DNA of 62,400 nucleotides, filler included, from Hausera hauseri (taxonomy: Eukaryota), in assembly GCA_046269625.1 (NCBI GenBank). It is 12 parts of 12 records of this genome, joined end to end, with 100 filler letters (N's around TTAATTAATTAA, not from the genome) between each part and the next. Parts side by side here need not be neighbours in the genome. Positions count along the whole stretch, not along the records: positions 44,940 to 49,583 come from JBJURY010491354.1; 11 more parts are not named here. One strand, 5' to 3'. The notes under the pieces were generated by a model. The model was not told the origin of the DNA and did no database searches. It saw nothing but the letters and a program-made list of their open reading frames with translations. This document shows, piece after piece, positions 2,514-49,583 of the stretch (position 1 is its first letter; every line of letters starts with the position of its first letter). A program made the translations under genes and the position numbers.

Positions 2514-3806
2514 CACAGTTTGCCCGGAAAGTTTTCGGAATGGTGCATTAGCAAAAGAACTACAGAAGGTACCAACCTTTATATATTTTAATTTTCAAAA
2601 TAGTCACCTCCCCTTTGTATACATATTTCACATCGTTCATAAAGCTTTTGAAACACTGGCGAATTCTTCTTTGCGAACCCTCTTCAGCTGCACTGTCACT
2701 AAGGTTTGGATTTCATTTATAGAGGTAAAACGTTCCTTTCATGGCGAGTTTCAATTTGGGAAGCAACAAATTTGCAGGTGCAAGATCTGGAGAATAGGCA
2801 GGATGAACTATGGTTCGTACTTTGCGTTTGGAGAAAAACTTGTTGACAAGGATAGACGCGTGTGCTCGTGCATTATTATTCAACAAAAGCCAGTCACCTG
2901 AGACATGAAATTCCGGTCGGATACGACTAATCCTCGGTAGTAAACGCTTCACGACGTCTTTGTAGAACGCTGCGTTGACAGTGTGGCCTTCTGGGACAAA
3001 TTCATGGTGAATGATACCAGCTGCATCAAAGAAAACGATGACCATTGTTTTTATCTTGGACTTCACTGATTTCACTTTCTTCGGTTTCAGCATTCCCAGA
3101 CTGATCCTCATACTTGTTTGTCGCTTTGTGGAGAAATCATATTCAAAGCACCAAGATTCATCTCCTGTCACGATGGATTTTAGAAAATTAGGATTGTCAT
3201 TCGCCGTTTGAAAGAAGTCATTGGGCGCATTCACTCGCTGTTCATTCTGCTCAGATGTCAGGAAATGAGGAACGAATTTGGCACATCTTACCTAAAACTT
3301 CTGTTAGGATCTCGTGCACCGTTGTTATCGTCACCTGGAGTTCATCAGCTATAATTGTGCATGTTTGCCGCCGATCTCTTTCAATCACAGTACGAACAGC
3401 CGCAATGTTCTCCTCTGATTTAGAAGTTTTCGAGCGACCACTTCTTTCATAATCTTCTAATGATTCACGACACTCCCGGAAACGTTTGTGCCACTCAAAC
3501 AGTTGTTTTGGACATACATTCATCACCCTAAGCAGTTCTCATCATCTCAAACGTTTCATTTGCACTTTTACTACACTTGAAACAAAATTTAATAGCAGCT
3601 CGCTTTTCCATCATAAAAACAATATCAGTGGTTACGTGTATGCAAAACAAAATCATTAACCATTCATCAGCTGTTAATACTACATAACTAAAAATTTTAT
3701 TGCATGTCAACAACAGTTCATAGTTCATAACAAGTGTATGATTAAATTATCCTATATAAGTATTACTGATACAAAATCATTCTGGGAACTTTCCAGACAA
3801 ACTGTG
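2514..3806 (-). mobile_element. full-length (1.29 kb) mariner element with TIRs
   Basis: Imperfect ~31-bp TIRs: CACAGTTTGCCCGGAAAGTTTTCGGAATGGT at 2514 vs reverse complement CACAGTTTGTCTGGAAAGTTCCCAGAATGAT ending 3806. TA on the right flank, TG (presumably mutated TA) on the left. Canonical mariner length. Confidence 0.92.
2590..3614 (-). pseudogene. mariner (DD34D-type) transposase, frameshifted
   Basis: MEKRAAIKFCFK..FEWHKRFRECRESLEDYERSGR, IVTGDESWCFEYD, LLNNNARAH (HDNA decayed), HPAYSPDLAPAN, split over ORFs 3528-3728, 3251-3526 and 2713-3234. Confidence 0.9.
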
Positions 3807-5529: not shown

Positions 5530-8500
5530 ATGGAATATGATCCGGAATTTCCTACAGAGTAAAATATTTTCAGACAAAAATAATTTAATTTGAAATTTAG
5601 AGAAGTGGACGAGGATGAGATAATTTGCGAGCATATTGTTGATGTAGCTGAAATACCGTTACCAGGTAAATTAGCGACTGTTCGTTAAAAAATAACCATA
5701 AAATATTTCAGCTTCCAAAAAGAAAAGCAAGAGACATGCAAAATTGAATAAAATTCCTTTGCCCGATTCTAAGCCTCAACCACCTAAAGTCTATGCAAGA
5801 GAGGATTCGCCTCCTCAAGAACCAGACACAAGTTGGTCTCAACCGACAAGCACTCAGGGTCCACTGAAATTTAATATCGTTAATAAAAGCAGTACCATAA
5901 AGTTAGCTGATGATGAGAATAGTGTTTTTGATAATTTGGATACGAAAATCGAATTACAGAAANNNNNNNNNNTTACAGAAACCGAAGATTCTTCCAAAAA
6001 AATCGAAGCTTATAGCTTTACCTACTGGAATTATTATGAAACCTGCTGACTCCGTAATGAATGAAACTAAAAGTAACACTGAACTATTTTTACCTCCAAA
6101 ATTAACTGTCGAAGAATCGAACAATGACATTAGCAATCCGTATTTAATTCCCCAGAAATTACGTTCTGCACAAATGATTTCACAGCCGCTGATTGCAAAT
6201 CCGTCAATCGCATCTCAGAATCAGAAGAAATCTCAAGAAAGTTCTTATAATAAACCAGAAGCTAAACTTGTAAATAGTCCCATTATCAAACATCGTAGTA
6301 GGTCGAAGTCTCAAGATGGCAACGACGAATTAAAAATTCGTGGCGAATCGGCAAAAACCGACATATTTGCTGATTCTACAGACGTTGATAAAACTAGTGA
6401 GTCTACCGTGCAAAATTCAGGTAATCAAACAACTGTTGAGAATACTGTGTCAAAGATAAATAGTGAAGTTCCAGACTCCAAGGAATCTTTACCGGTTGAA
6501 AATAAGGTAACCCGTTCTAGAAAAAGTAGCTTTTCGTCCACAGGAAAGTGGCCTAAATCCATTGATAGCGATGTTAGTACACGATCAAAAAGTCCTGATC
6601 GGTTTAATAAATGGACTGAATCTTCTCGTCGAAATGCTGCAAGTCGAGAAAGGTCTCGAAGTCCGGATAAATCAAAAAATCAGCAGAAAAGTAACAAATC
6701 ACCAAATAGTTATAAAATTAGAAAGCGTTCTTATACACCAGAATACAATCGTGATATCGTGCCGAAACGAAATAGATTTGATAGGCGGAATCGTTCGCCG
6801 TCCGACGATTATGATGGCTATAGATATTCTTTTAAAAGAAATCAATCTCGAGTGGATAAACCAAAACGATCCAGAAGCCGAAATCGTATTACCAACGAAT
6901 CTGACAGATATAAAGGTTCGAGAAAGCGGGGTTCAGCGTCATTCGATAGTTATCGAAAATCAGTAAGCCGAAATTACTCTTCAAACTCCGATAAACGGCG
7001 CGACTCGTTAACGCCGGAAAGATATCGGCTGCCGGATAAAAGAGGTCGATATTCACCAGCTCCCGATAGATATCGTCGTTCACGAACACCGAATAGACGT
7101 CGTGATTCTGGCAGCAGAAATACTCGACCTAGAATGCAAAGTAAATATGAATGGCGCGAACAGTCTGGAAGTCCATATTATCCAACGAATTCGTATCATC
7201 GGCAATTAAATAATGCCAATCGTCATGACAGATATGAGTCAAATAATAGAAATAAACCCGGTGATTCAAAAATGTACAATCAGGATAGAATTCGAAAAAG
7301 ATCCAACAGTCGAGAATACAATAGTCGAAGAGTTGAGAACGATCGAAATGAGAGCAGAGATCAATTAAACAAAAATAACGTTAAAACGGATGTAGAGGCG
7401 TGGGATTTCGAAACCGATACATCATCGGATGGTAAGAAAAAGACCGACAGTGGTTCTGATGTTGATTTGGATAAGGATGATTCGACAGTTGATTCACGAA
7501 AGTTGGCGAAAGTTGTCAAAAAGTCTGATGACCTTAGAAACTCAAATAAACTAGAAGTAGCAACTGTCGATGATCCGGCAACAGTTTCATCTTCAAATTC
7601 TCTGCAGACGAAATCGAAAATGGATAAAGATGATGCAACGGTTTCGTCAACTGTCGATGAAGTTAAAGATACGTTTGCAAAACAAGAAACAAGTAAAGGT
7701 CGAACATCCAATGAGTCTGTCAAAGGTTCGGATAAACAACGTCACTCTGTGGATTATTCGAATATTAATTCGCAATCTAAAAAAGATAAAACACGATACA
7801 AACGAGCTGATTCGTATTCCGATGTCGACTCAAATTCCGAAGACGTTGATTCATGTCGACGTCGTATCAGATCGGGCAGTCCGAAAAAGACATATTTGTC
7901 AAAATACAAAGCAAACGATGATGGTGCAGTGAAACATGCCCGGAAAAACAAACTGTCTCCATCGCCCGTCCGAGAATCGAAGGATAAACATAAGCGAACT
8001 AGATCGTCGTCGGAGAGCTATAAACGAACAGCTAAAGTTAAAACATACCACGACAATCGGCGAGGTGATAAATCATCGTCCAGGGATTACCATGTCTATT
8101 CCAGTCCAAAGATTATGAAATCCAAACGAGATCGAAATTCGAACACGGAAAAAAGGAAATTAAAAGACCATGGCCATCGAGTCAAAAGTAAGAGTCGATC
8201 GCGGTCTGTAGATTCTCGAACAGATTCCCGACCGAAACGGTTTCAAATTGGATCTCGGCGATCGAATTCTGTCAATTCCTGCACCGGTTCCGAGTCACAA
8301 TCCGATACGGAAAGACTGGCTAAAAAGGCTCGGGAAATATCCTTCTCCATGTCCGATGGTGACAAAAAGAAATATCCGAAACAACGGAATAGTTTCCGTT
8401 TTGAAGTGTCCACGTCCGAGTCCAGCAACAAAGGACCGAAGCACAAGAAGAAAACAAAAGTGGAACAAATAACGTACGTTATCAGTTCCGATTCCGATGT

Positions 8501-8735
8501 CAAAAAAGATAAACGACGGGACAAAAAATATTCCGATGACAATCGAAGTATTTCATCATCAGAGGAAGCCAAACGACGCAAAAAGAAATCGAAGAAAAGT
8601 AAGATCAAAAAAGAAATCCGCAAGTCGAAAAGACGAAAACATTTAGATAGTGATTTATCAGATAATAGTATTGAATTGAACAGATTGCCAGTACGGAAAA
8701 AGGGTGCTTCATCGTCTGGACAGTCTACTGATTGA
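5530..8735 (+). CDS. ~1030-aa low-complexity Arg/Ser-rich (SR-related) nuclear protein, 3 exons
   Basis: Exon 1 5530-5558 (MEYDPEFPT), GT-AG intron 5559-5600 (42 nt), exon 2 5601-5665, GT-AG intron 5666-5711 (46 nt). Exon 3 from 5712 splices in frame into ORF 5744 and, across the 10-N gap at 5963-5972, into the 941-aa ORF ending 8735. RS/SP dipeptides and a Lys-rich NLS-like tail. Orthologue not recognised. Confidence 0.8.
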
Positions 8736-11399: not shown

Positions 11400-13932
11400 A
11401 CATTACGGCGCCACGGTAACTCTCGTTGGAAATCTGCAAGCCTCTTCCATCTATATTCACCTTTACATTCACTTTCGCATCCGTGGTGGCATGGATTCAC
11501 CACCAACTATTGATACCACGGACAAACCCACCAAACCACCGATCTCTCTCACTTACTTACCCAAACAAAGTACTTCAAACACTTCGACACAGCACACATT
11601 CCTCACTCATTCACCCTGCACAGAATATTTCCTCGATAGACAAAATTCTACCCAAACATGACTAAAACTTCATCTATTCTGGCTCTAATCACAAAACGTC
11701 GTCGACCCTTTTTCCAAAGCCAACAGCCTGTTTTTTCATTTACCTGCTTCTATCAAAACTGAAATTACAAACATCATCGACATCCTTCACTACACCGATC
11801 CATATGCTCAACTTTATAATGCCGTTCTTAAGCTCACTTAGCCGTCAATCGACTCTATCATTCAAAGGTTCTTCAATGTCAACGCCACGGGCCTTCAGAA
11901 GCCTTCTGAATTCTTGCCCACATCCTTGTCTCACCTCAATACCCTTGGCGTAACATCTGAGCATAGTCCAGATCTTCTTCATCGTTACTTCCTAAACGCA
12001 TTGCCCCTTCAAATAAGAGCTTTGCTCACTGTTGTCGAAGACTTCACGGCACTGGAAAAGTTAGCTGAACTGGCGGACAAAGTCTATGAAGTGCTGCACT
12101 CACACACAATACCAACTGTATCTGCGGCATTAACAACAAACCACCAGCAATAAAATGTAATGCTGCAGCAACAAATTGCGCAATTACGCACAGGCAATGA
12201 AATGTTGCAAAAGACAATTAATAACATAAACGAGATATTAAATGATTTAACGCTGCCTCGACGAGGTTTTTCTAGGGCTGCCTCCCCTAATGTATTTCAT
12301 CAACGACAAAGACGGTCGCCTTCGTCCGCGCGGTCGTCTATTTGCTACTGTCACAACAAATTTGGTAACAACGCGCAGAAATGCTGCATTGGTTGTAAAT
12401 TTTACTCCCCCTCTTTTAATACAAGCAACATCGTTTGCATCTATCACTCAAAATTTGGAACAAAAGCACAAAAATGCCTACCTGGCTGTAACTACAACAC
12501 GCTCAATAAAATCAACACCATTAAACCCACAAAAGTCAGTAAGCCAACCTCACCAGCTACAAAAAACTGATTTCGCCGCTAGGACACACGGCAAGGTCTA
12601 GCAAAAAGATAGTCGACACATTTCCTTTGCTGTATTCACGTTGGAAGCAGCAGTTGTCACTCCAACAAAGCAAAACATGAACTTTCTTACAGACACCGGC
12701 GCAGCAATCTTTCTACTACCACCAACACAGCACATCCAAAACAATTTCACTTCAAAAAAGCAACTTTTTGCTGCATCCAGCGAACCTTTACAAACTTTTA
12801 GCGTTACCAAATTAACTTTTACACTTTCAAATTTCCCAAACACATTCACTTGAAAATTTACAGTAGCCAATATACGCACACCTATATTGGGTTCAGACTT
12901 TCTGTCCCACTATAATTTACTTGTAGACTGCAAATGATGTTCCTTAAAGAGCGGAAATAATTTTAATCAAATTAGCAGCATTTCGGTGACCACCTGAGCG
13001 ATCGCTTCCAACAAGTCAATACTAAAAAACGACTTCCGATTTAAATTATTTTTATAATCATTTATTATATAGAAATTTTTATTACGGCAACAAATACGAT
13101 ATTATCAACTGCGTGGCACCTATTACTGATAGTACAGCAGCCAACACCATTTTCAACACAAACATACTGCACCTAAAGCCACCTAGTCACAACACCTTGT
13201 CTACAACTCATACCTTAATTGCATCCATTCACGATGCATTGACACCATCTGAAAACTTCTCATCGTTGACCTCTGACTGACAGCAATATATTTCGTCTTC
13301 CTGCACGTGTCTGTTACAAAGGACAAATCATTAGTACCACATCAATGCACCTTCCATCACATAGTAACATCACATCAAAGACCAATACGTCAAAAGGTCC
13401 GCCCACTATCGCCTCGCCGCAGACAGGCAGTGGAGGCAGAGTTTCTCGAACTGGAATAATCAGGAATAATCAGAAGATCCAAATCCCCGTGGCCTTTATC
13501 ACTGCATGTGGTTCCAAAAAGATGGTACCTTTCGCCCATGCGGTGATTACCTCCAACTCAACATCATAACAACAATGGATGCCTACCCTCTACCATTAAT
13601 CAATGATATCCTTCACAAGCTCCATGGTTCGACCATCTTTGCCTGCATTGATTTACACAAAGCATACCAACAAATTCCGGTGGCCCCAGCAGACATTTCG
13701 AAAACGGCTGTCATTACACCTTTCAGTCTTTTCGAATACCTTTTCATGCCTTCTGGACTCCATAGCGCTTCCCAGACCTTCGAAATGAGTATCGATACAG
13801 TCCTCTCAGATTTAGGCTTTGTAAATCCCTATATCGATGGTATCCTAATTGCATCATCTTTGTCGAAACAGCACTCCGAGCACTTACGTTTAATCATCCA
13901 GCGCTTGCACCAAAACAACTTGCAAATTAATT
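11400..13932 (+). mobile_element. Gypsy/Ty3 LTR retrotransposon (CsRN1/Kabuki-like), gag-PR-RT, decayed, truncated by contig end
   Basis: Gag QKPSEFL..LHRYFLNALPLQIRALL..LAELADKVYE; two C-x-H-x-KFG-x-A-x-KC knuckles; protease FLTDTGAA and PILGSDFLSHYNLLVD; RT KDGTFRPCGDY..DAYPLP..IDLHKAYQQIPV..YIDGILI. 5' boundary approximate. Confidence 0.9.
12561..12602 (+). promoter_or_regulatory. -1 programmed ribosomal frameshift signal (A AAA AAC plus stem/pseudoknot) at gag end
   Basis: Slippery heptamer in the gag frame directly before TGA, 7-nt spacer, then GCCG/CGGC and GCTAG/CTAGC pairings conserved in the second copy at 61148-61189. Confidence 0.7.
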
Positions 13933-14032
13933 NNNNNNNNNNNNNNNNNNNNNNNNNNNNNNNNNNNNNNNNNNNNTTAATTAATTAANNNNNNNNNNNN
14001 NNNNNNNNNNNNNNNNNNNNNNNNNNNNNNNN
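13933..14032. other. artificial contig linker
   Basis: N44-TTAATTAATTAA-N44. Confidence 0.98.
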
Positions 14033-27644: not shown

Positions 27645-30597
27645 ATGGATCTAAATATAAACAATAATTTTATACTAGACAATGATTGCTATGAAACAAC
27701 TGTGATTGACGATTTTTCTTTTAAATTACAGATTAAACAGTACATATGATAAACCGCTTGGCTACCTTAATATAATTCACATGAACGAACATACGTAGTT
27801 TAAGACATAATTTTGATGAATTTCTATACCACATTGGTAATAGTAAAGTAAAATTTCAAATTATAGTTTTAACTGAAAGTTGGATTACGGATGAATCAGA
27901 GTTTAATTTCTCAATAGATGGATACAAGGGTGTAAATAAAAGTAGTAAATACACAAAAAGTGATGGATTATGCATTTTTATACATAACACTGTCGACTTT
28001 GAAATTGTAGAGATCAGCATTGAAAACAGTAATGCCATCTGTATAAACTGTAAATATAGAAACAAAAGCTTTAGAGTAATAGGATTGTATCGGTCACCTT
28101 CCTTAAATATAAATACTTTTATAACAAGTCTAGACTCCATTTTACAAACAATGAAAAACGTACATAACATTATAACTATTGGGGATTTAAATCTATTTAT
28201 AACAGATAATAACAATTTAATCAATGAGTATCTCTGTACAATGCATATAAACGGATTCAAATCATATATAAACAAACCAACAAGGATAAATAATGCAAGT
28301 GCAAGCTGTATAGACCACATATTTTTAAAAAATAAAGATTTTAATAATAGCAATATAATAGGAACAATTATTAAAACAAATATTACAGACCACCATTGTG
28401 TTTCTCTCCAAATAAATATGAACTGTCAAGATTATAAGGAAAATACAATAACCAAAACGCGTAAAAAATTAAATTGGGAAAAACTAAAAGTAAATCTTGG
28501 TAAAGAAACCTGGAGTGACATAGTTTCTGATAATATTGATACTTTTGTAGATAAGTTTGTAAACAAGTTAAATGATTACATAACTAAAGAAACTAGAATT
28601 ATTAATGTACCGCGTAATAAACAACCAATAAAAAAATGGATCACCCCAGGCTTAATAAATTCCATTAGAGTAAGAGACAATATGCATAAGAGAGTTACAC
28701 AAGAGCCATCAAATATTGCCCTAAAAGAAAAATATAAAAAATACAGGAACAAATTAAATCAGTTAATAAAGGCCACAAAAATAAAGTACTACGAGTGCAA
28801 GCTGGATGAATCTAAGGGAAATTCCAAAAAGACATGGGATTGTATAGCGGAAATGTTAGACTCTAAAAAAATAAACAACAGAGCTGATATCGACCCAGGG
28901 ATATTAAACTCATATTTCGTTCAGGTAGGTGAAAACCACGCAAAAAATTAATCAATGATATTAATAAAATCACAATGCCAGAATCACTGCAATCTTCCCC
29001 GTTACAAAGTATTTTTCTAAACCCAACAAACGAAAAAGAAGTAATACAAACAATAAATTCTTTAAAAAATAATATGTCACCAGGCATAGATGATATCAGT
29101 GGGTACTGTGTTAAAGAAATAGGGAATTTTATTGCCAAACCATTAGTAAAAATAATAAATGAATGTTTCAGGAAAGGATACTTCCCACAAAAATTTAAAG
29201 TGGCTAAAATTACAGCAATTCATAAGTCCGGCGATCTAAGTAACCCGGAAAACTACCGTCCCATAAGCCTTCTAAGTAACTTCGCAAAAATAATAGAAAA
29301 AATCATTAAAAAAAGATTGCTAGCTTACCTAAAGCAAATTACTTTTTTTGAAAATAACCAGTATGGTTTTCAAGAAGGTAAATCAACAAGTGATGCTGTA
29401 TTGCGATTGATAGAAATAGTAAATAAAAACTTTAATACAAATCGTAAAACCTTATCAGTATTTCTGGATTTGTCAAAGGCTTTCGACACAATTCCTCATT
29501 CAGTATTGCTTCATAAATTGGAGAGAGCTGGAATAAGAGGTGTGAGCAACCAATTAATTAGGAGTTATCTTGAAGACAGACTTCAAATACTAATAGCAAA
29601 TGGAAAGTCTGATTCAAGAGAGCTATCAGGCTTTGGACTACCCCAAGGTACTGTACTTTCTCCAATACTCTTCCTAATTTATGTTAACGATCTGATGAAA
29701 TTGGATATTCGTAACTGTGAGGTTTTGTCGTTTGCTGATGATACGGCTCTGATATTCACTGACGAGTCTTGGGAAGAAGTGTTTAAATGTGCTAACAGAG
29801 GATTAATAAAGGCCAAGTCATGGTTTGATAAACATATTTTAACTTTGAACTCTAAAAAAACAAAATTTATATGCTTCTCACCAAATGATAAAGGCCAACC
29901 GCCATTAACCTTAAAATTACAGATGCATACCCATAACTATGGAGAAAGAAACAATACTAACTGCAACTGCAGTAATATAGAAAAGGTCAAAGTATTTAAA
30001 TATTTAGGAATACTAGTGGATCATCATATAAAATGGGATATGCATATAAATTACTTATGTTCTAGATTAAAGTACCTTATATATAAATTTTATAAAATAA
30101 ACGAAATAAAACATTTAAATATAATAAGGATAATTTATTTTGCATACGCTCAGTCTCTTTTCCAGTATGGAATTGAGATATGGGGTGGTGCTTTCGACAC
30201 ACATTTTAATAAGTTATTTGTCCTCCAAAAACATTTAATTAGAGCAGCTCTGGGTAGGCCTAGATTATATCCTAGTAGACTACTCTTTCAGGAGCTTAAT
30301 GTACCAACACTACGACAGACTTACTTACAGAAAACTATTTTCCATATAAATAAAAATAATCAAATATTTACAATTCGAAATACACCATACAACACCCGAG
30401 TACATAGCACCAACACATACAATGTAGCCTTTACAAGACTGACTATAAGTAGACGTCAGTTTACTCATTTGAGTGCACTGTTAATTAATAAAATTCCTCT
30501 TTATTTTATAAGCAATAAACTAACAAAAACTCTAAGAAATAATATAAAACAATGGGTTAAAAATGAAATATACTTTAAGATACTTTTTTTAAATTAA
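27645..30597 (+). mobile_element. non-LTR retrotransposon ORF2 (APE endonuclease + RT), CR1/L2-group, nearly intact
   Basis: APE: HMN(I)RSL, VLTESW, GLYRSP, IGDLN, CIDHIF, TDHH. RT: NYRPISLL, NQYGFQ, FLDLSKAFDTI, GLPQGTVLSPILFLIYVNDL, FADDT, KYLGILVD. ORFs 28085-28951 and 28975-30597 are separated by a 1-nt shift in an A run (~28945); a GAAC duplication near 27785 also shifts the frame. Confidence 0.95.
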
Positions 30598-35420: not shown

Positions 35421-36679
35421 TGAGCCCATACACCTTAGTACTACAAATAGACATTAACAAAATAGACACACATCTCATGCCATTCTCAGTACCGCTGTAA
35501 CAGCTATTCGAAGAGGTTATGCGAAGAAATGTCTCCCCTCCGGAATGGTGAATCAACCTAGTGCACATGTGGACAGTCACCCCAGACTGTGGAACATATC
35601 CTGCACCCTTGTATGCTGCATTGAGGTGCAGTCACTGATCGAGAGAAGCATCATTAGATACAAATTTATATAGCTCTATGATGGAACTCCAGAACACTGT
35701 GCAGTTAGTTCATCAGGAAGATACATCTGTAGACATAGGTCAAGGTGAACGAAAGAAGAAGAGGAAGTTGAATCTTCTTGATCTGATGATTGTTCAAATG
35801 CGGTTCTTGTCTTCCTCCTTTCTGTGACAGCATCCTGGATTTCACCATTCGGGAGGGGAGACATTTCTTCGTATAACCTCTTCGAATATGCAAGAACGGA
35901 ACTGTCATGTTATGGATTCATTCAGAAAGTTACTCAAGACAAATATCTGATGTTGGAGAAAGCAGTGGTTTTTTTTTTTTGTCTATTACAAAAACTGGAC
36001 AAATTTCATCTGAAATACCCTTCTAAAATTATGATGCCCGTGGTCAGATATTACTTCAGCATATTTGATATGCTGGTGTCTCCAGGTCATGAACAAATAA
36101 TTTCTTCAGATTCAGATGGAGAAGCCAGTGTTGACTAGACTTAAAATAAAACTAGACCAAGACGATGTGTGGGCTGATGACTATGGTCCGGATTGTTTGT
36201 TATGTGGCACTACTGTTGGCATTTTCAGACGAATATGGTAATAAACAACTAAGTGAAGAAAACGGGAAAGATTGCTAAAAGGAAAAACCAAAAGTTGACA
36301 GAAAAAATGCAACGAAATCCCAACAAACCAGATCTAACTAATTGTGACATAAACGTTGTTTGACACATTTCGACATTGAAGAAATGTATATTTATTGATA
36401 CTTTGAATAATAATTTTCGTTATTTGCTGTAATATTTTCCTATGGAGTGAATTTATCCAAGAGCGGATTAAAAAAACATTCATGTCATTATCTTGTCCAT
36501 TTTTAATATTAATTTTTTTTTTATTCTTTATGTTAATTTTATCTGACATATTAAACAAAATCGAATCATGTATTTTGTTGTCGATGTCATAGGTCCTCAG
36601 TAAAGTTTAGCTAAAATAGTTTAAAATATAATATACATTTTTGCTTTGCGATCCGACTCTTTCTCTAACTTCACAAATC

Positions 36680-41654: not shown

Positions 41655-44600
41655 TTGCAAAACAACAGAAATCAAAAACAGAAGGAGCAGCAGCAGCAGG
41701 AACAGGAGCAACAGGGGGAGGAACCACGAATTACTGTCATGTACGATCTGAAAAAATCGTGCGTGGATATAAAAGTGAACATATCAGCGACAATAACAAT
41801 AACAACAACAACGCAATTGAGACTTGTTCCATCTACTGTGCGAAACTGGTTGAAATCTAAAGCGGACAAATTCCAACACCACCGCAACTGCAAAGTGCAG
41901 TATTATGCACTTGCAGAATTCGAAAACGTGCAAGGCAACAGGAAACAATGGTACCTGTCACATCGAGCTGTACCATATATCGAGGATTTTATCGCTGAGA
42001 TTGGCGAAAAATTCGAGGAGAAAATCACCAACTACATGGAAAAAGGTAGTGGATGGCGAATTGTAAAGATTGTCGCTCTCAACTTTATCATTACAAAGTT
42101 GAGTGACATGATTTACTTGTCGGGGAGATCATTCATACCGACACCTGCAGCCTAAAGCACTCTAAAACTGTAGTCAATGTAGAAAATAATAGGGACGAAT
42201 ACTATTTTCTTTACAGTATTTTAACCACATTAAAATATGATGAAGTCCCCAGAAATCGTGCAAATCGTTCAAAACAATATCGTCAGTATTTTTCTGAATT
42301 GGACTTTAATGAAAGCTGGATGCCGATAGAACTAAAAACCGTGCCGGCTTTTGAACGGCGTAATCCGACACTGGCAATCAACGTTTTCCGGTACAACTCA
42401 GCAACAGAGATACCCGCAGATGAGGATATTTACAAAAATCCTTATGGGGATATAATCTAACAAAGTCGGAACCCGAATGGACGTCCAATATACCTGTTGC
42501 TGTTGGATCAGACAGAAAATTTTCATTACGTGGCCGTAACAAATCTGGACAGACTGCTGAACATGGACAATGACCAGTTCATCCAAAAACAAATACGCTG
42601 CAAATGGTGCCCCATATGTTTGCATGGCTAAAATCAGAAGCGACATGGGAAAAACAAGTGGCGCTATGCAGATAAAACGTATCGGGAACAACAATGTACG
42701 CAATGCCCGTCAAAACGGAGCTGAGATTCAGTGACCGTTTAAAAACGGACAGTCCGGCATATATGATCTATGCCGATATTGAAGCAATTCTGTCGAGGCA
42801 CAACGTATACGACCAAAAGCACATTCCAATCGCCGTCGGTTTGTTACTAGTACCAATAAAAGCTATGGGACAACCGCAGTATTACTTTTCCACGGATGGA
42901 ACTGTGTACGTGATTTCCTGCACCAGTTGGAGGCAATAGTGGAAGCGGAAATCTCACCGTAGTACAGCAACAAGAGCACTAAGCCTTTGATCTGGACAGA
43001 CGAAGACGCACACCTTACGTTTGCAGTCACAGATAAATGCTACCTGTGCCACAAAATATTACCATTCCATAAACAGGAACGGCTCGTACCTGATTACGAC
43101 TACTTTACCGGATGATACCTAGGAGCAGCATGCAATTCATGCAATTTAGCATGGCGTGTGCGGTCATTCCTGCCCGTGATATTTCCTAACTTGAGGAATT
43201 ATGATTGTCACCATATTCTGAAATGGGCCATTAATGGATTTCCACACTGGGAACTGTCCATAATCCCAACAACTATGGAGAAATACCTGTCTATATCTGC
43301 ACGCATAAGCCGGTTCCACGTGCAATTCCTTGACTCATTACAGATCCTCAATGAGTTTCTAGCAAAGCTGGTAATTCCCTTGAGGTATGTGCCGTTAACA
43401 TCAACGCAGTTTCCGATGCACATTGCACGTAGCAAAGGAATATTCCACTATGACTTTGCTGCATCATTTGATTACATACTCCAGTATCTGAAAGTGGACG
43501 TGTATTTGCTGACCGACGTGTTTCAGACATTTCGGACTAAGGCGTTGGCGGAAGATAGACTGGAGCCGCTCAACTTTTACTCCATATCGGGAATGAGTTG
43601 GGCGTCGGCATTGATATCACTGGACCGGGACATTGAGCTATTGCAAGACCCGGAAATGTACCGATTGTTTGATGTCGGTATTCGTGGCGGAATGACATTT
43701 GTCAACAAGCACCACGTAACCAATGACGATAACACCACATCACTGCAGTACATTGACATTAATAACCTGTACAGCTGGGCGCTTTCGAAACCCTTGCCGT
43801 ACGGTTCATTTGAATGGTTAACGGACAAGCAAGATCTGGAGGCAATATTGGGAAATTTACCGACAGCAGACACGGCAGAAAACAGCTCATTCGGCTACCT
43901 GATGGAAGTTGATCTCGTGGTACTGGATGAGTTGCATGACGCTTTGGACCAATTGCCTGTCACACCAATCAGCCAATGTCCGCTCGGCGGCTCAAAGGTA
44001 AAGAAACTCCTCATGACGCATGAACCGAAGATGAATTACGTGGTCCATTGGCGTTTGCTACAGTTCTACATGCAGCTCGGTGTACGCGTCACACAGCTGC
44101 ATCGCGCAATCAAATTCAATCAGGCGCCGGTATTCAAGGCATACATTGACGAAAATTCAGAAAAACGAGCCGCAGCTTGTACAAAGTTAGAAAAGGATTA
44201 CAATAAGTTGAAGAATAATTCTCTCTAAGTCAAAACAACAGAGAACCTCAAAAAGCGACTCAATGTGCGCCTATGTAACAACGAAAAGCGGCTGGTTAAG
44301 TACACCAGCAAGGATCAGTTCAGGCGGTCAATGAACATTGCCGATGGATTGATCGCCGTGATGTTAAACAGGGAAGAAGTCGTACTGGACCGGCCAAGCT
44401 ATATAGGACAAGTGGTATGGCACCTGCGCAAGTTACGAATGTACGAGCTCCAGTATCGCGACTTGGCACGTTACCGGCAAATGTTCCACGGCTGTGAGAT
44501 CAGTATTGTTGCCAGCGACACAGGCAGCTTTTTTCTTGAGCTGAAAAACGTCAATCGCGACCAACTGCTCCGGCAAATAATGTCAGATGGACTACTGGAC

Positions 44601-44839
44601 ACGTCCAATTACCCGCAGAATCATAGTAACGCCATCACGAACAAAATCGGCTGCTTCAAGGATGAAAGCGAAGGCCGTGTTCAGTACGATAATAAATATT
44701 CCTGCGCTCAAAGTGCTACAGTCTCCTTACGGTCTGTGGACCGAAAATGCGCGCAAAATGCGTTCAGCTGTCCCAGACGGAAATAAGCCACGGTGATTAT
44801 CGCCGTATCTATGAAGCAGCAGCAGCAGAAGACGGAGGA
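41655..44839 (+). pseudogene. protein-primed family B DNA polymerase of a Polinton/adintovirus, decayed
   Basis: EKGSGW..GRSFIPTP, LAINVF, IYADIEAIL (Exo I), FPNLRNYDCH (Exo II), FLDSLQ, KGIFHYD, YLKVDVYLLTDVFQTFR, GIRGG, YIDINNLYSWALSKPLP (motif A), KLKNNSL* (motif B), SDTGSF (motif C), IGCFKDE. Confidence 0.93.
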
Positions 44840-44939: not shown

Positions 44940-45167
44940 TAACATTTCTCTTCCCTGAACGGCATCCTCGGAGGTGCCAATTGCGTCATGAGAGGTGCTG
45001 TCAGTTTTGTGTTGTCTTAATAGGTTTATTCGTCTTCGTAAACTAATATCGGTGGTCGTATTTTTATGGTCGGGTCTGATTTCTATTTCATAACTATGGT
45101 GAGTCTTTATACGGACCACCATTGTGTAACCTCCGTTGGAGAAGTACTTCAAGTTGGCGGCTTCAGC

Positions 45168-45302
45168 TCGACATATTGGACAAGTGGTCTAACCATTTTC
45201 TAGAGTCCACTTCTCTAGACATTCTCGGCAGTATCTGTTTCTGCAGTCTTTGTTGTCCAAGACGACAAATCCTTGTTGGAGGCTAGCCTCGCAGACCGGG
45301 CA
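45168..45302 (-). pseudogene. RING finger domain (not in the ORF track because of an internal stop)
   Basis: CPVCEASLQQGFVVLDNKDCRNRYCRECLEKWTLENG*TTCPICR: seven Cys ligands plus the conserved W and CP.CR; His position is Asn. Confidence 0.85.
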
Positions 45303-46245
45303 CTTGTTTTCTTCTTTTTCCCACTTCGTCATCCAGGTCCACTCTGATCGTAAGTTCAATTTGTTCAAAAATTAATCCTTATTCGTTTTGATATATGTAT
45401 CCATGAATTCGTTTCTGCTTAGGGTCCACAGAACTTGGTCTTGGGTCACTACTTATTCTACCAATGTTTAGACGTCCATCGTCTCATGGTCTAAGTCAGG
45501 AACTCGGTTAGCTGTCCGGTATTTTTGATATTGTTTCTTTAGTAGGAGTTTTAATTGTTCGTCTACTTGCACTGTCAATTTTCCAGTCCTCTTCGATTGA
45601 AAAATCGGTGCAACATATTTTCCTAATTTGGAATTTTCCAATATATAGGTTTTCTCATATACTTCTTTTTGTGGTGACTGTGATGTAAAAGGCTGCTTCC
45701 TTGATTTTCCCATGGCTATAATGTTCGGTTATTACTAGCATTTGGGCAAATCTTCTACAGTGGCAACGTGTTGATTTCCAGGTAGGTCTCTATTCCTAAG
45801 AACATTTATTTCTGTATACCGTTTAGTTCTTCTTGTGTTTCTTTGTTTCTGAACCATGATTTCTTCCGGTCTCTGTTCGATTGGTAGGGGATTTTCGTTC
45901 TTCTGCGTTACTTCGATCGTCGTTTTTGTATTGTCGATTTCACGCGTTCTTTTAAATGTACGGTCATACAATGAAGTCTTTTTTTGGTATTTTGTGGTAA
46001 TATATCGATTTTCGGTTTCTTTTCTGGAACTTGGGAATTTTGAAGACCGATTTGTCATCCTTATTCTCATCTAATAGTGGTATGGAGGCTTCTTGACTTA
46101 TATTGGTTATTTGGCTATCGTCAGTTTTGAACATTTCATTAATTTTATTTGGTTGATATTGTTTCCGTTATCTCACGTAAATTTGATATGGATTTGCATA
46201 ACTGACCAAGTTATACTCAAGTTTTGGAGGAACCCATTCATGTTC

Positions 46246-46779
46246 CTACGATAATCCGGCATAAGTATCTCTTAGGTACTGAGTACGTTGACTCGCGGTC
46301 AACAATTTACTAATTTTAGCTAGACTATTAGTTCTAGCTTCTACCATTATTTTAAAGTAATCATCCATGATCCTTGGCATGGGATAGTCTCTTTCTCGTA
46401 ACAGTTTTTTTGTTCGTTTGGCGATAAGTGGGCGTGTATTAATTTCTCTTACTCCTGCGATTCCTGATTGCGGATTCTCCAATAACAATATTGCTTCTTT
46501 CACACGGTATCCAATAAGGATACATCCATATAGACAATGGGCCAATTCATTCTGTACAACTTTTATGTCTTTTCCTTCCTTCAAGTTTTCCTTACGGATT
46601 CCTGTTTGATCGTAAAAGGTTTCTGTGACCCGTTTTCTTGGACTAATAATCGTATGATACGATTCTATTCGATTTGTCTCCCTGATTGAAACTTCCATCG
46701 GAATTTTGTCTGCCTGGTTACCTTCGCAACAGCTTATGACGTGTGGCACTAATTTGTTGGAATATAAGGAGTTTGCCAT
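46246..46779 (-). pseudogene. REXO4/ISG20-like DEDDh exonuclease domain, catalytic acids substituted
   Basis: CCEG..VSI..YHTIISPRKRVTETFYDQTGIRKENLKEGKDIKVVQNELAHCLYGCILIGY aligns by eye with REXO4 DCEM..VSI..YDKYVKPTEPVTDYRTAVSGIRPENLKQGEELEVVQKEVAEMLKGRILVGH. Confidence 0.8.
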
Positions 46780-47596
46780 CTCCGATTATAACAGTCTATG
46801 CCGAAATTTTAGAGGTGGTAAGGAGGGGTTGTTCCGTTCATCTTTTGTCACTTCAATCATTATTTTAACAGCGAGTGCAGTGACTCGGAATTCTATATCC
46901 TTTTCCTGCAGTGTTTCACTCTGTAATTTGAGGGTACTAAACTTGTATTGTTTCCNNNNNNNNNNTACTCTTGGGCCTCTAATCGGTAGTAGATTTCACC
47001 GTGGGCTAGGTGGCTATATAGGTCCCTGCCAATTTCATTACTCACTAACTGTCTAAGTGAGTAGGCCCTAGCGTCTCTGTTTTCTCTCATAGCATACTTG
47101 TATACAACTCTGGCTTCTTCGGTGGTCCCAATTAAGTTATTCGGTGTAGTGTTGACCTGGTCGTATTTTATGGCGGCCTTTCCGTGTATTTCATTGTATC
47201 TCCCGACAGATAGAATGGGAATTCATAATGAGTATGGTAGCATGAATCTGTAGGAATTCGTCGATACTACATCGACATGTTGAATTGTTTTCTTTCTCTC
47301 GTTCGTCGATTCTACGTCGTCCAGACATCTTGTGGTTCTTGATTCTGAGAAATAAACAATAAGCATTATTCTTAAAATAAAGATCTTTTCTAAAATAAAA
47401 CCAATTCTTTATCCAATGACAGAATAACCTGCTCTGTAATTGTCAGATTATTTTATCATACGGATCAATTTTGTTTCCCAATTCCCTTAGTTCCAACTCT
47501 GTAATTTTAGGACGCTTTTATTAACAATTTTTGGCACATAATCGAAAAATCGCAGTTTTGAGTGGTAGTTTTATCGTCTATATTTTCGTATATATT

Positions 47597-48770
47597 CTAT
47601 TCTGCGTGAACCTTGTCTAGGGTACGCAATGTGATTGTTTTGTTTTGCTTATTCTTCGCATATACTTGTACTATGTAATCAAATAGTGGTTTTAACAAAT
47701 TTTGCTCTGTCTGATAAGTTTTTTTAAATAGTGTCACGATTTGGTTATTATACATGGTTCGGTAGCTTATATAGATATAATAATTTAGCTTCTCCTCCAC
47801 AAAGAACACGATTCTAAATCGATGTATCGAAAACTTGATGGGGATTCTCTCTAATTCGCTTTTATGTGTACTGCTTGATGTAACGGTTCTTGTGAGTCTA
47901 CTAATCCGAGTAGTCGGTCTTTTAGTCGTCATTGTTACTGAAATTTTCCATATTCTATTCTCGGGATAGTAAGTTTGTAACTGTATACTTTCTTTGTTAG
48001 GTCGCACTTCATATAAGTCAAATTTTATTTTAAATTCTCGGTTTACTGGCAATATACAACAAGTGTGTTGCATGCCGGCACGAATGAAATAATATTCTAA
48101 TTTCGGAGTTCATCCGTTTACCGCTTCGAAAACAATACTGATTTCCTTGCTAACGTTTAATCCTGATCGAGAATCTACTTGGATACATTGTTTTTCGATA
48201 TTTATCGAGATTCCCTTTATATTTTCGTCTAAAACCTTATTCCTGTATTAGTGGATTGTAACATTTCTATGGGTTTGCCTGTGAAACGTTCCGACCAAGT
48301 GGTAATAACCAACTGGTGTTGTGGGTTTACTTCGATATAGACCTCTGCTGAGTCGGGTAAGTATAATTGATAGGTAAGAATGTAAACATGTTCAAATTCT
48401 ACATCGCAACACTGAGTATAATCACCGTTTCAAAATCTCAATCCTTCATTATTCTTGTCACTACATCGTATAGGACAATTTGAAATCTTCCAAAGTCGTG
48501 GTGTGGTCTCCAAGTTTTAAATCGAACACACGTGGAGTCCGGCGAAAAGTAGTTAACCGTCATCGATTGTAATAATCTAGTGTCTTCTTGTTTCTGTATT
48601 TCTTCGGCTGTCGGTTTCTTTTCCGCTATAGTAATTTTTACCTTTAATCCGCTTTTCCGTATTCCGTATACGTTCTCTAACGTAGATTCATCGTCCCACC
48701 ATTGGGTTTGTATTCTCGGAATATAAGAAGCAATTATCGATAATGCTAAAATTATCTGAACGTATGATAT
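47597..48770 (-). pseudogene. signal/TM segment plus three beta-rich, fibronectin-III-like modules with an S/T-rich linker
   Basis: ISYVQIILALSIIASYIP; two modules with C..CC spacing (CVRFK..CCDVEF and CIQVD..CCILPV); TMTTKRPTT..TVTSSST; LKPLFDYIVQVYAKN (FN3 L.P..Y.V.V.A.N motif). Confidence 0.5.
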
Positions 48771-48849
48771 CGGTCTATTAATTATTGATGAAGTTTTTAT
48801 CTCACGTTGGCGTAAATTATAACGTTTGTAGGGTCGTATTTCCGTCTTA

Positions 48850-49583
48850 ACGACTCTTTGTACAGAGACGACTTCTGTCCTGTTTTTGTTAATATACACT
48901 GTAGTTGGTGTAATTCTAGTAATTTCGTACGGTCCTCTGCCTGTACGAGTTAGTTTTAATGATGTGCCTTTCTTGGTTACCGGATAATGTACATAAACCC
49001 AATTTCCACGTTCTAAATCATGTGGTTTTGCTCTCTTATCATATTGCATTTTAAATTGTTCTTGATACTCCCGGGACAATTCCTTGGCGACTTCCCAACA
49101 TTTATGTAGCCATGTCTGTAATACGTCTGCAAAATTTCCTCTAAATCTTCGGGGCAGACTCTGTACGGTGTCATTCCTAAATTTGTGTGTAACACAGCTT
49201 CTCATCCATACATCATGAAAAATGGTGTAAATGCTGTTGCTGGATGTGGTGTGGTATTAAATCTTTTTGGGCCTTAGCCACTACAGTTGATAGTATGTGT
49301 ATGACAGTTGCATTTATTCATTTAACCATTCCATTGCACTGAGGATGGTACGCAATAGTGGTCGACCGTTCGATTTCAAATATTTTGCTGATCTTCTCAA
49401 AAAGTTCACTTGTAAAATTTCCTCCTCTATCTGTTAGTATCTGGTCTGGCGGTCCATACCGGCAGATTATTCTTACTACGGCGTCGGCCAATGTTTCTGC
49501 CTTCTGGTCAATTAACGCTATCAATTCGACAAAATGAGTTAGTCTGTCAATACAAGTTAAGATATATTTATTATTCCGGTATG
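48850..49583 (-). pseudogene. retroviral-type (rve) integrase with GPY/F C-terminal module
   Basis: NKYILTCIDRLTHFVE..RYGPPDQILTDRGGNFTSELF..AYHPQCNGMVK*IN..FTPFFMMYG..MQYDKRAK..GNWVYV..KLTRTGRGPYEI. Confidence 0.93.

What the first reader, a model, noticed from the sequence alone, without database searches (positions are those of the whole stretch)
46246..46779. Captured REXO4/ISG20-like domain appears to be a pseudo-nuclease
TGIRKENLKEGKDIKVVQNELAHCLYGCILIGY is strikingly close to REXO4 SGIRPENLKQGEELEVVQKEVAEMLKGRILVGH. However, Exo I D-x-E reads C-C-E (TGT, two changes from an Asp codon), the Exo II Asp reads Ala, and no Exo III H-x4-D is visible. Scaffold retained but all metal ligands except one lost suggests inactivation predating decay, e.g. 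an RNA-binding decoy (inference).
Basis: partly seen in the sequence, partly recalled or inferred. Interest (0 to 1): 0.72.

Follow-up and report, generated by a model that had tools for sequence, protein, structure and literature searches.

The report
Retrotransposon dead exonuclease fused to RING
A decayed jumping gene carries an extra gene whose RNA-trimming-enzyme-like domain lacks its cutting residues in every relative found and is fused to a RING finger, so the protein likely binds rather than cuts and would tag host proteins with ubiquitin.

Summary
46246-46785 (minus strand) is the middle of a broken ~2.5-kb extra ORF of a Ty3/Gypsy-type LTR retrotransposon, between integrase and a polypurine tract/3' LTR start. 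Its boundaries are decay stops. The domain is DEDDh-derived (family profile versus PDB: four best hits all DEDDh, best E 1e-6; below Pfam's cut-off; no usable model). Catalytic loss is not this copy's decay. An intact 870-aa homolog of the whole ORF (P0006, about 36% identical in the domain) lacks the Exo I and Exo II Asp and the Exo III His/Asp. A second homolog (P0007, ends before Exo II) lacks the Exo I Asp. Diverged copies in the same sequencing run agree, and 25 of their 40 best-supported differences are synonymous (pN/pS about 0.17). New: the pseudo-nuclease is fused to an unknown N-terminal domain and a C3HC4 RING finger. Corrections: the Exo I Asp most likely maps to Ser18, not Cys19, so perhaps all five ligands are gone; REXO4 versus DnaQ ancestry is unresolved; RNA binding is untested. 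Precedent: intact DEDDy ORF3s of rotifer elements. New variant; interest 0.55.

The parts
48800..49583 (-). 3' part of an LTR-retroelement integrase: core, then GPY/F-type motif at 48935; broken by stops and frameshifts; cut by the contig end; the 48800 limit is approximate
   Evidence: Pfam rve E 1.6e-13, retroviral/Ty3 integrases in PDB, motif position; GPY/F as a Ty3/Gypsy mark is recalled
47510..48790 (-). Broken coding stretch of unknown kind between integrase and ORF3; starts with a hydrophobic stretch at about 48764; limits approximate
   Evidence: Translations; no Pfam hit at E<0.01 in this stretch; no NCBIfam hit for its 3' part
44940..47420 (-). Extra ORF (ORF3), broken by at least 10 in-frame stops in the matched frames and by frameshifts; homolog of the intact 870-aa P0006; hydrophobic N-terminal stretch at about 47399
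   Evidence: tblastn of P0006 covers 47195-46971, 46953-46105 and 45863-44940; stops counted
46795..47195 (-). Unknown N-terminal domain of ORF3, shared with P0006 and P0007 (36-38% identity); spans the assembly gap
   Evidence: no Pfam, PDB or Atlas match
46956..46965 (.). 10-N scaffold gap; the join is supported because P0006 and P0007 match collinearly on both sides
46240..46750 (-). DEDDh-derived pseudo-exonuclease domain (the finding)
   Evidence: 37% identity to P0006 over 167 aa
46723..46734 (-). Exo I site: Ser-Cys-Cys-Glu; the Asp position is most likely Ser18; Glu21 is invariant in the three family proteins
46492..46494 (-). Exo II Asp position: Ala (Met in P0006)
   Evidence: only a synonymous difference is listed at this codon among other copies
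46285..46302 (-). Exo III His/Asp positions, approximate: Leu162 and Arg167 (Leu and Cys in P0006)
   Evidence: alignments; the register here is less certain
45171..45302 (-). C3HC4-type RING finger; 7 of 8 ligands left in this copy and one in-frame stop; 8 of 8 in P0006; 65% identical to P0006
   Evidence: Pfam zf-RING_2 E 3.5e-7, P0006 zf-C3HC4 E 2.6e-7
44945..44956 (-). Polypurine tract (12 nt), overlapped by the last codons of ORF3
   Evidence: 1 of 10 purine runs of 10 nt or more on this strand is followed by TG, and it lies at the contig end
44940..44944 (-). First five bases (TG...) of the likely 3' LTR; the contig ends here
   Evidence: inferred from the PPT-TG junction

Best explanation
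This is a decayed copy of a Ty3/Gypsy-type LTR retrotransposon whose extra 3' ORF joins an unknown domain, a DEDDh-derived domain lacking its catalytic residues in every relative found, and a RING finger, and the intact protein likely works as an element-encoded ubiquitin-ligase adaptor rather than as a nuclease. Shown: position inside the element; homology to DEDDh exonucleases by sequence profile; absence of the Exo I Asp in 3 of 3 family proteins, of the Exo II Asp in 2 of 2 that reach it and of the Exo III His/Asp in 2 of 2 (approximate register); purifying selection among copies; single-ORF fusion to a complete C3HC4 RING in P0006. Inferred: the domain was captured from a cellular gene and lost catalysis on the stem of this family. 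Predicted, untested: the dead domain binds a nucleic-acid end (most simply the element's own RNA) or a former protein partner, and the RING recruits a host E2 to ubiquitinate host RNA-decay or silencing factors that gather there, helping the element's RNA survive. My odds: family-wide pseudo-nuclease fused to RING in an LTR element 0.85; E3-adaptor mechanism given that, about 0.5-0.6.
For: Element context: integrase and PPT-TG junction at the contig end; 4291 of 15,501,002 contigs of run X1 lie on the 4.6-kb contig at 80% likeness or more. DEDDh homology: the family-only profile's four best of 6 PDB hits are DnaQ 1.2e-6, PolC exonuclease 5e-5, SDN1 0.012, ISG20L2 0.049; profile-profile against REXO4-like rows 97% probability. 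Family-wide loss: P0006 is open over 870 aa yet reads Asn/Gly/Met/Leu/Cys at the five aligned sites; P0007 reads Asn/Ala at Exo I. In run X1 one far-diverged contig has Asn-Cys-Gly-Glu at Exo I and another has Val at Exo II (single-contig loose ends, read by eye). The Exo II Ala codon shows only a synonymous difference, in 2 of 3 other contigs by my reading of the depths. Selection: 26 of 40 listed differences at third positions, 25 of 40 synonymous against 10.7 expected (0 of 20000 randomisations reach it), pN/pS about 0.17. The RING is the best-conserved part (65% versus 29-38% elsewhere) and has 8 of 8 ligands in P0006. Dead DEDD folds can bind RNA: Bombyx Maelstrom (PMC4408791, abstract).
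Against: No function was measured. Both AlphaFold models failed (pLDDT 35 and 38), so fold and active-site geometry rest on sequence alone. Pfam's cut-off is not reached. The P0006 domain has net charge 0, no sign of a basic RNA-binding surface. The family is only three proteins (2 of 6858 candidates). The DNA around P0006 and P0007 was not seen; that they lie in LTR elements is inferred from P0006 ending like the PPT-encoded end of this ORF. Exo I and Exo III registers depend on the alignment (versus 76, 78, 80). Several invariant acidic residues and a His could form another site. The hydrophobic N-terminal stretch of P0006 is unexplained and is weaker in P0007. The 40 differences are the best-supported of 100 and may share descent. 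Exo III lay outside the stretch laid.
Confidence: 0.5

Rival explanations
1. The dead domain is a passive RNA-end cap or RNP chaperone that shields or escorts the element's genomic RNA. The RING acts separately or only as a zinc-binding interaction module.
For: Same family-wide loss and selection. Metazoan Maelstrom lacks DEDD and binds single-stranded RNA (PMC4408791 abstract). An LTR-element accessory protein that acts on its own genomic RNA exists: Cer1 CERV (PMC10309623 passages). About 330 residues of poorly conserved linker separate the two domains in P0006.
Against: It does not explain why the RING is the best-conserved part and in the same ORF. The neutral charge of the P0006 domain weighs on this reading too.
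Confidence: 0.27
2. The domain is still a nuclease, with a rebuilt, non-canonical active site made from the family's invariant acidic and His residues.
For: Invariant Glu (Exo I +3) and other invariant Asp/Glu/His in the three proteins. An active-site switch has been proposed for the Maelstrom DnaQ-H domain (PMC2628886, search listing only).
Against: The canonical positions vary freely between members (Ser/Asn; Ala/Met/Val; Arg/Cys). Several invariants match structural motifs shared with DnaQ and REXO4. Three sequences give many invariants by kinship alone.
Confidence: 0.1
3. ORF3 is a membrane-anchored protein (env-like position, hydrophobic N-terminus) whose cytoplasmic RING down-regulates surface or membrane proteins; the exonuclease fold is only a structural spacer.
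For: Hydrophobic stretch at the start of P0006 and at 47399 and 48764 in the window.
Against: P0007 has no window above 1.6 hydropathy. No env or fusion-protein match. Purifying selection on the fold argues for more than a spacer.
Confidence: 0.09
4. The element encodes an active DEDDh exonuclease and this copy merely decayed.
For: This copy is heavily broken (at least 10 stops) and sits on a long end branch.
Against: The intact P0006 and P0007 lack the same residues. Diverged copies in run X1 lack Asp at Exo I and Exo II, and the Exo II Ala codon differs only synonymously.
Confidence: 0.04

Closest known systems
DEDDy ORF3 of Juno and Vesta LTR retrotransposons of bdelloid rotifers (Rodriguez, Kenefick, Arkhipova 2017, PMC5408684; passages read)
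   Same: A DnaQ-superfamily exonuclease domain as extra ORF behind pol in an LTR retrotransposon.
   Different: Those are RNase D-like DEDDy domains with invariant residues reported intact (DEED). Here the domain is DEDDh-type, has lost the residues, and is fused to an unknown domain and a RING.
REXO4 / ISG20 / ISG20L2 / SDN1 and DnaQ / PolC DEDDh exonucleases (Pfam RNase_T PF00929)
   Same: Core strands and helices from after Exo I to Exo II align well; the C-terminal helix aligns more loosely.
   Different: Catalytic D-E-D-H-D absent; shorter first hairpin; an insert of about 25 residues before Exo III; below the Pfam cut-off; subfamily unresolved.
Metazoan Maelstrom (PMC4408791, abstract) and EXD1 (named as an inactive DEDD derivative in PMC5408684, passage)
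   Same: DEDD fold kept without catalytic residues, in the transposon-versus-host setting.
   Different: Host piRNA factors, not element cargo; no sequence match to them appeared in any search; no ECHC zinc motif was looked for beyond the alignments, which show none.
Burro/GYPSM1 giant Gypsy elements of planarians (PMC6431247, section 7 read)
   Same: Gypsy elements carrying ubiquitination-related domains (RING-type AIR1, MATH/TRAF, BIR).
   Different: Those lie in a huge gag-side polyprotein and include no exonuclease domain in the section read.
CERV of C. elegans Cer1 (PMC10309623; listing and passages)
   Same: Accessory protein of a Gypsy-type element acting on element RNA; a functional analogy only.
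   Different: No RING domain or exonuclease is named in the passages found; no sequence relationship was seen.

Membership tests
DEDDh exonuclease (Pfam RNase_T), as active enzyme | Profile score above the gathering cut-off (24 bits) | tested here: not met
   18.3 bits (window); 16.6 bits (P0006 domain)
DEDDh exonuclease (Pfam RNase_T), as active enzyme | Detectable homology to DEDDh domains | tested here: met
DEDDh exonuclease (Pfam RNase_T), as active enzyme | Exo I Asp | tested here: not met
   Ser in the window, Asn in P0006 and P0007; no D-x-E in the region under any of three registers
DEDDh exonuclease (Pfam RNase_T), as active enzyme | Exo I Glu | tested here: inconclusive
   Cys/Gly/Ala at +2, but an invariant Glu at +3 could be the ligand shifted by one
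DEDDh exonuclease (Pfam RNase_T), as active enzyme | Exo II Asp | tested here: not met
   Ala (window), Met (P0006); P0007 ends before it; other copies
DEDDh exonuclease (Pfam RNase_T), as active enzyme | Exo III His-x4-Asp | tested here: not met
   none in the window ORF; the one H-x4-D in P0006 is elsewhere and not shared
DEDDh exonuclease (Pfam RNase_T), as active enzyme | DnaQ-like fold | tested here: inconclusive
   models at pLDDT 35 and 38; no Foldseek match at E<=0.001
DEDDh exonuclease (Pfam RNase_T), as active enzyme | 3'-5' exonuclease activity | not testable with these tools
   needs an assay
REXO4/ISG20 subfamily | Closer to REXO4/ISG20 than to DnaQ/PolC | tested here: inconclusive
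   REXO4-like on top; DnaQ/PolC on top; no tree with both groups was built
Ty3/Gypsy LTR retrotransposon | Retroviral-type integrase with GPY/F module at the end of pol | tested here: met
   (motif meaning recalled)
Ty3/Gypsy LTR retrotransposon | Polypurine tract abutting a TG-starting 3' LTR | tested here: met
Ty3/Gypsy LTR retrotransposon | Paired LTRs, target-site duplication, RT-RNase H upstream of integrase | not testable with these tools
   the contig (44940-49583) ends inside integrase and 5 nt into the LTR; no genome is held
Ty3/Gypsy LTR retrotransposon | Multiple diverged copies in the host | tested here: met
   (one run only)
Juno/Vesta-type DEDDy ORF3 | DEDDy (RNase D-like) type with intact catalytic residues | tested here: not met
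   hits are DEDDh; residues lost
C3HC4 RING finger | Eight zinc ligands in C3HC4 spacing and Pfam score above cut-off | tested here: met
   P0006: 8 of 8, 30.8 bits versus cut-off 21; window copy 7 of 8 with a stop, zf-RING_2 30.8 versus 27.3
C3HC4 RING finger | E3 ligase activity | not testable with these tools
   needs an assay

The most novel reading that the evidence does not exclude
An animal-type LTR retrotransposon lineage has built its own counter-defence enzyme: a stolen, disarmed exonuclease that recognises RNA ends or the host's small-RNA and decay machinery, wired to a RING E3 ligase that sends those host factors for destruction.
Probability: 0.25. Interest if true: 0.82.

Novelty: new variant of a known kind. 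Interest (0 to 1): 0.55.

Why it matters
Exonuclease cargo in LTR retrotransposons has been described as intact DEDDy enzymes of unknown role. Here a DEDDh-type cargo has been kept under purifying selection after losing catalysis, which says the fold is wanted for binding, not cutting, and it is fused to a ubiquitin-ligase-type RING. That mirrors the host side of the conflict, where dead DEDD proteins (Maelstrom, EXD1) serve piRNA silencing. An intact natural version (P0006) exists, so the question of whether such elements encode active suppressors of host RNA defence can be tested directly. The family is rare in current databases (three proteins), which limits its general weight for now.

Tried and rejected
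No whole genome is held. Word-based homolog searches with the window protein: 0 of 20 and 0 of 686 candidates; with the family alignment only P0006 and P0007, 2 of 6858. DNA context of relatives: JGI metagenomes 0 of 310 and 0 of 191, IMG/VR 0 of 26 and 0 of 27 pattern matches confirmed. No second copy in the window. Sequencing runs: one holder, possibly the source; no RNA holder listed, which says nothing on expression. AlphaFold: single sequence pLDDT 35, five-row alignment pLDDT 38. Foldseek on the latter put ISG20 first but at E 0.94, TM 0.17; not counted as evidence. The PDB search with alignment A5 contained REXO4 rows and is circular for ancestry; not counted. A second DEDD-like domain upstream, suspected by eye, was rejected (it is the separate N-terminal domain). 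My first placement of Exo III at residues 152/157 was wrong, so one search did not cover Exo III. P0008 (four degenerate REXO4-like domains) as donor: not supported; 3 of 3 family proteins score higher against intact REXO4, and the tree leaves it open. Atlas on the N-terminal domain: no usable hit. Laid depth is far lower over ORF3 (6-390 in most bins) than over integrase (thousands), but the tool says depth is no copy number; not used. A bacterial promoter scan was irrelevant here. Literature: nine full-text searches of PMC-CC and bioRxiv listed no paper on a dead DEDDh or DEDDh-RING ORF in an LTR element. I judged from listings and the five papers opened (part 1 of 4 of PMC6338049; the others as cited). 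Repbase/Dfam, subscription papers and supplements were not seen and could hold this family.

Full report
Setting. The window is a string of 12 small contigs joined by an artificial spacer. The finding lies on contig 44940-49583, on the minus strand. No whole genome is held. The other contigs carry LINE, mariner and Polinton-like remains, so the host is a repeat-rich eukaryote, probably an invertebrate (inference).

The observation. Frame 46785-46246 holds the quoted peptide, the C-C-E triplet, Ala at the Exo II position, and no D-x-E or H-x4-D. Homology to DEDDh exonucleases is weak in each single test but consistent: Pfam RNase_T E 0.0037, under the cut-off; PDB DnaQ and PolC exonuclease E 0.0035 and 0.012; NCBIfam PolC/DnaQ models E 4e-4 and weaker; Atlas RNase_T and REXO4-like clusters at 0.92 and 0.91, with 10 of the ten best named hits in one clan, which the tool says a third of shuffled proteins also reach; score 115 against a database REXO4 versus at most 58 in 1000 shuffles. 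A profile of the three family proteins alone ranks four DEDDh structures first among its 6 hits (best E 1.2e-6). The subfamily is unresolved: the structure and NCBIfam searches favour DnaQ/PolC, the large sequence searches favour REXO4-like proteins. Two structure predictions failed, so the fold is not shown.

What it belongs to. Upstream lies an integrase core with a GPY/F-type motif. The contig ends in a 12-nt polypurine tract followed by TG, the only such junction among 10 purine runs. The domain therefore sits between pol and the 3' LTR of a Ty3/Gypsy-type element. Paired LTRs and RT could not be checked. One sequencing run holds the stretch, and 4291 of its 15.5 million contigs lie on the contig at 80% likeness or more. 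Reading through stops with X showed a RING finger about 1 kb downstream (E 3.5e-7).

The intact relative. phmmer over 1.84 billion representatives gave 4 hits at E<=0.001: P0006 (870 aa, E 1.9e-27), P0007 (333 aa), P0008 and a REXO4 fragment. The upstream stop is also not read in any of 3 contigs laid over it. So the 'ORF' is a decay fragment of one long ORF3: hydrophobic start, unknown domain, DEDDh-like domain, variable linker, C3HC4 RING (8 of 8 ligands in P0006). Identity to P0006 is 36-38% in the first two domains, 29% in the matched linker and 65% in the RING. A further search with the family alignment found only these two proteins (2 of 6858 candidates). Their DNA context was not seen.

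Is the loss older than the decay? Aligned to REXO4 (three MAFFT modes; for the C-terminal helix), P0006 has Asn, Gly, Met, Leu and Cys where the enzyme has Asp, Glu, Asp, His and Asp. P0007 has Asn and Ala at Exo I and ends before Exo II. The window has Ser, Cys, Ala, Leu and Arg. Other alignment runs shifted the first strand further, also without an acidic pair. Within run X1, 46 contigs lay on 46305-46745, 31 of them under 90% alike. Of the 40 best-supported of 100 differences, 26 are at third positions and 25 are synonymous, against 10.7 expected from the same changes placed at random (0 of 20000 trials; pN/pS about 0.17). One is a synonymous difference in the Exo II Ala codon. From the depths, 2 of the 3 other contigs there carry it and at most one could hold Asp (inference, assuming rows are ranked by share). 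Two far-diverged single contigs, read by eye from the loose-end table, show Asn-Cys-Gly-Glu at Exo I and Val at Exo II. Exo III lay outside the laid stretch and rests on P0006 alone. The three proteins form one clade on a long stem (100/100, 8 rows, no outgroup). Together: the domain was under purifying selection while already lacking the canonical ligands.

How it most likely works. Shown: a selected pseudo-nuclease fused to a complete RING in an LTR element's extra ORF. Inferred from general knowledge of RING proteins: an E3 ligase whose other domains choose the substrate. I commit to an adaptor model: the dead domain binds an RNA end or a former partner, and the RING ubiquitinates host decay or silencing factors that come near the element's RNA (0.5). 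Rivals: passive RNA cap or chaperone (0.27), rebuilt active site (0.1), membrane-anchored RING with a spacer fold (0.09), simple decay (0.04). Against RNA binding, the P0006 domain is neutral in net charge. Nothing was assayed.

Comparison with what is known. Rotifer Juno and Vesta elements carry DEDDy ORF3s with residues reported intact (PMC5408684, passages). Planarian Burro elements carry ubiquitination-related domains (PMC6431247, section 7). Metazoan Maelstrom is a dead DEDD fold that binds RNA (PMC4408791, abstract). Cer1 CERV is an accessory protein needed for genomic RNA export (PMC10309623, listing and passages). Nine literature searches listed nothing on a dead DEDDh or DEDDh-RING ORF in an LTR element; repeat databases, subscription papers and supplements were not seen. 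Earlier notes of this scan (unchecked) mention other nuclease or RING cargo in Gypsy elements and other dead REXO4-type genes, none with this combination; sequence look-ups found no look-alike. It works like an accessory-ORF protein of a Gypsy element built on a pseudo-nuclease; it is not a member of the active DEDDh enzymes or of the Juno/Vesta DEDDy group.

Verdict. Observation confirmed with a register correction; interpretation supported in its core; new variant of a known kind; interest 0.55. Most novel reading: an element-encoded anti-silencing E3 ligase (probability 0.25, interest 0.82).

Noticed in passing
protein P0008 (Logan record, 804 aa): Four tandem REXO4-like domains in one ORF, each missing most catalytic residues (only domain 2 keeps the Exo I D-x-E): a separate multi-domain pseudo-nuclease of unknown context.
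   Followed up: partly
window 47510-48790 (-): Broken coding stretch between integrase and ORF3 with a hydrophobic start and no significant family hit; 47420-47574 has the highest laid depth of the 3' half.
   Followed up: partly
window 43116-44786 (+): Broken DNA_pol_B_2 polymerase (E 1.3e-16), likely a Polinton/Maverick remnant, on the neighbouring contig.
   Followed up: no
window 27785-30597 (+): LINE-type endonuclease plus reverse transcriptase in two overlapping frames.
   Followed up: no
window 13470-13988 (+): Reverse transcriptase fragment at a contig end (RVT_1 E 3.4e-17).
   Followed up: no
window 2713-3291 (-): Mariner/Tc1-type transposase fragment.
   Followed up: no
window 5907-8735 (+): 942-codon open frame with no Pfam hit at E<=1.
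   Followed up: no
window 35505-35888: 48-nt inverted repeat, 96% complementary, 288 nt apart, MITE-like.
   Followed up: no
window 4837-58367: The window is 12 small contigs joined by an artificial N44-TTAATTAATTAA-N44 spacer, so neighbours across spacers are not genomic neighbours.
   Followed up: yes
window 44940-44960 (-): ORF3 runs through the polypurine tract into the LTR, and P0006 ends with nearly the same residues, so the overlap appears conserved.
   Followed up: partly
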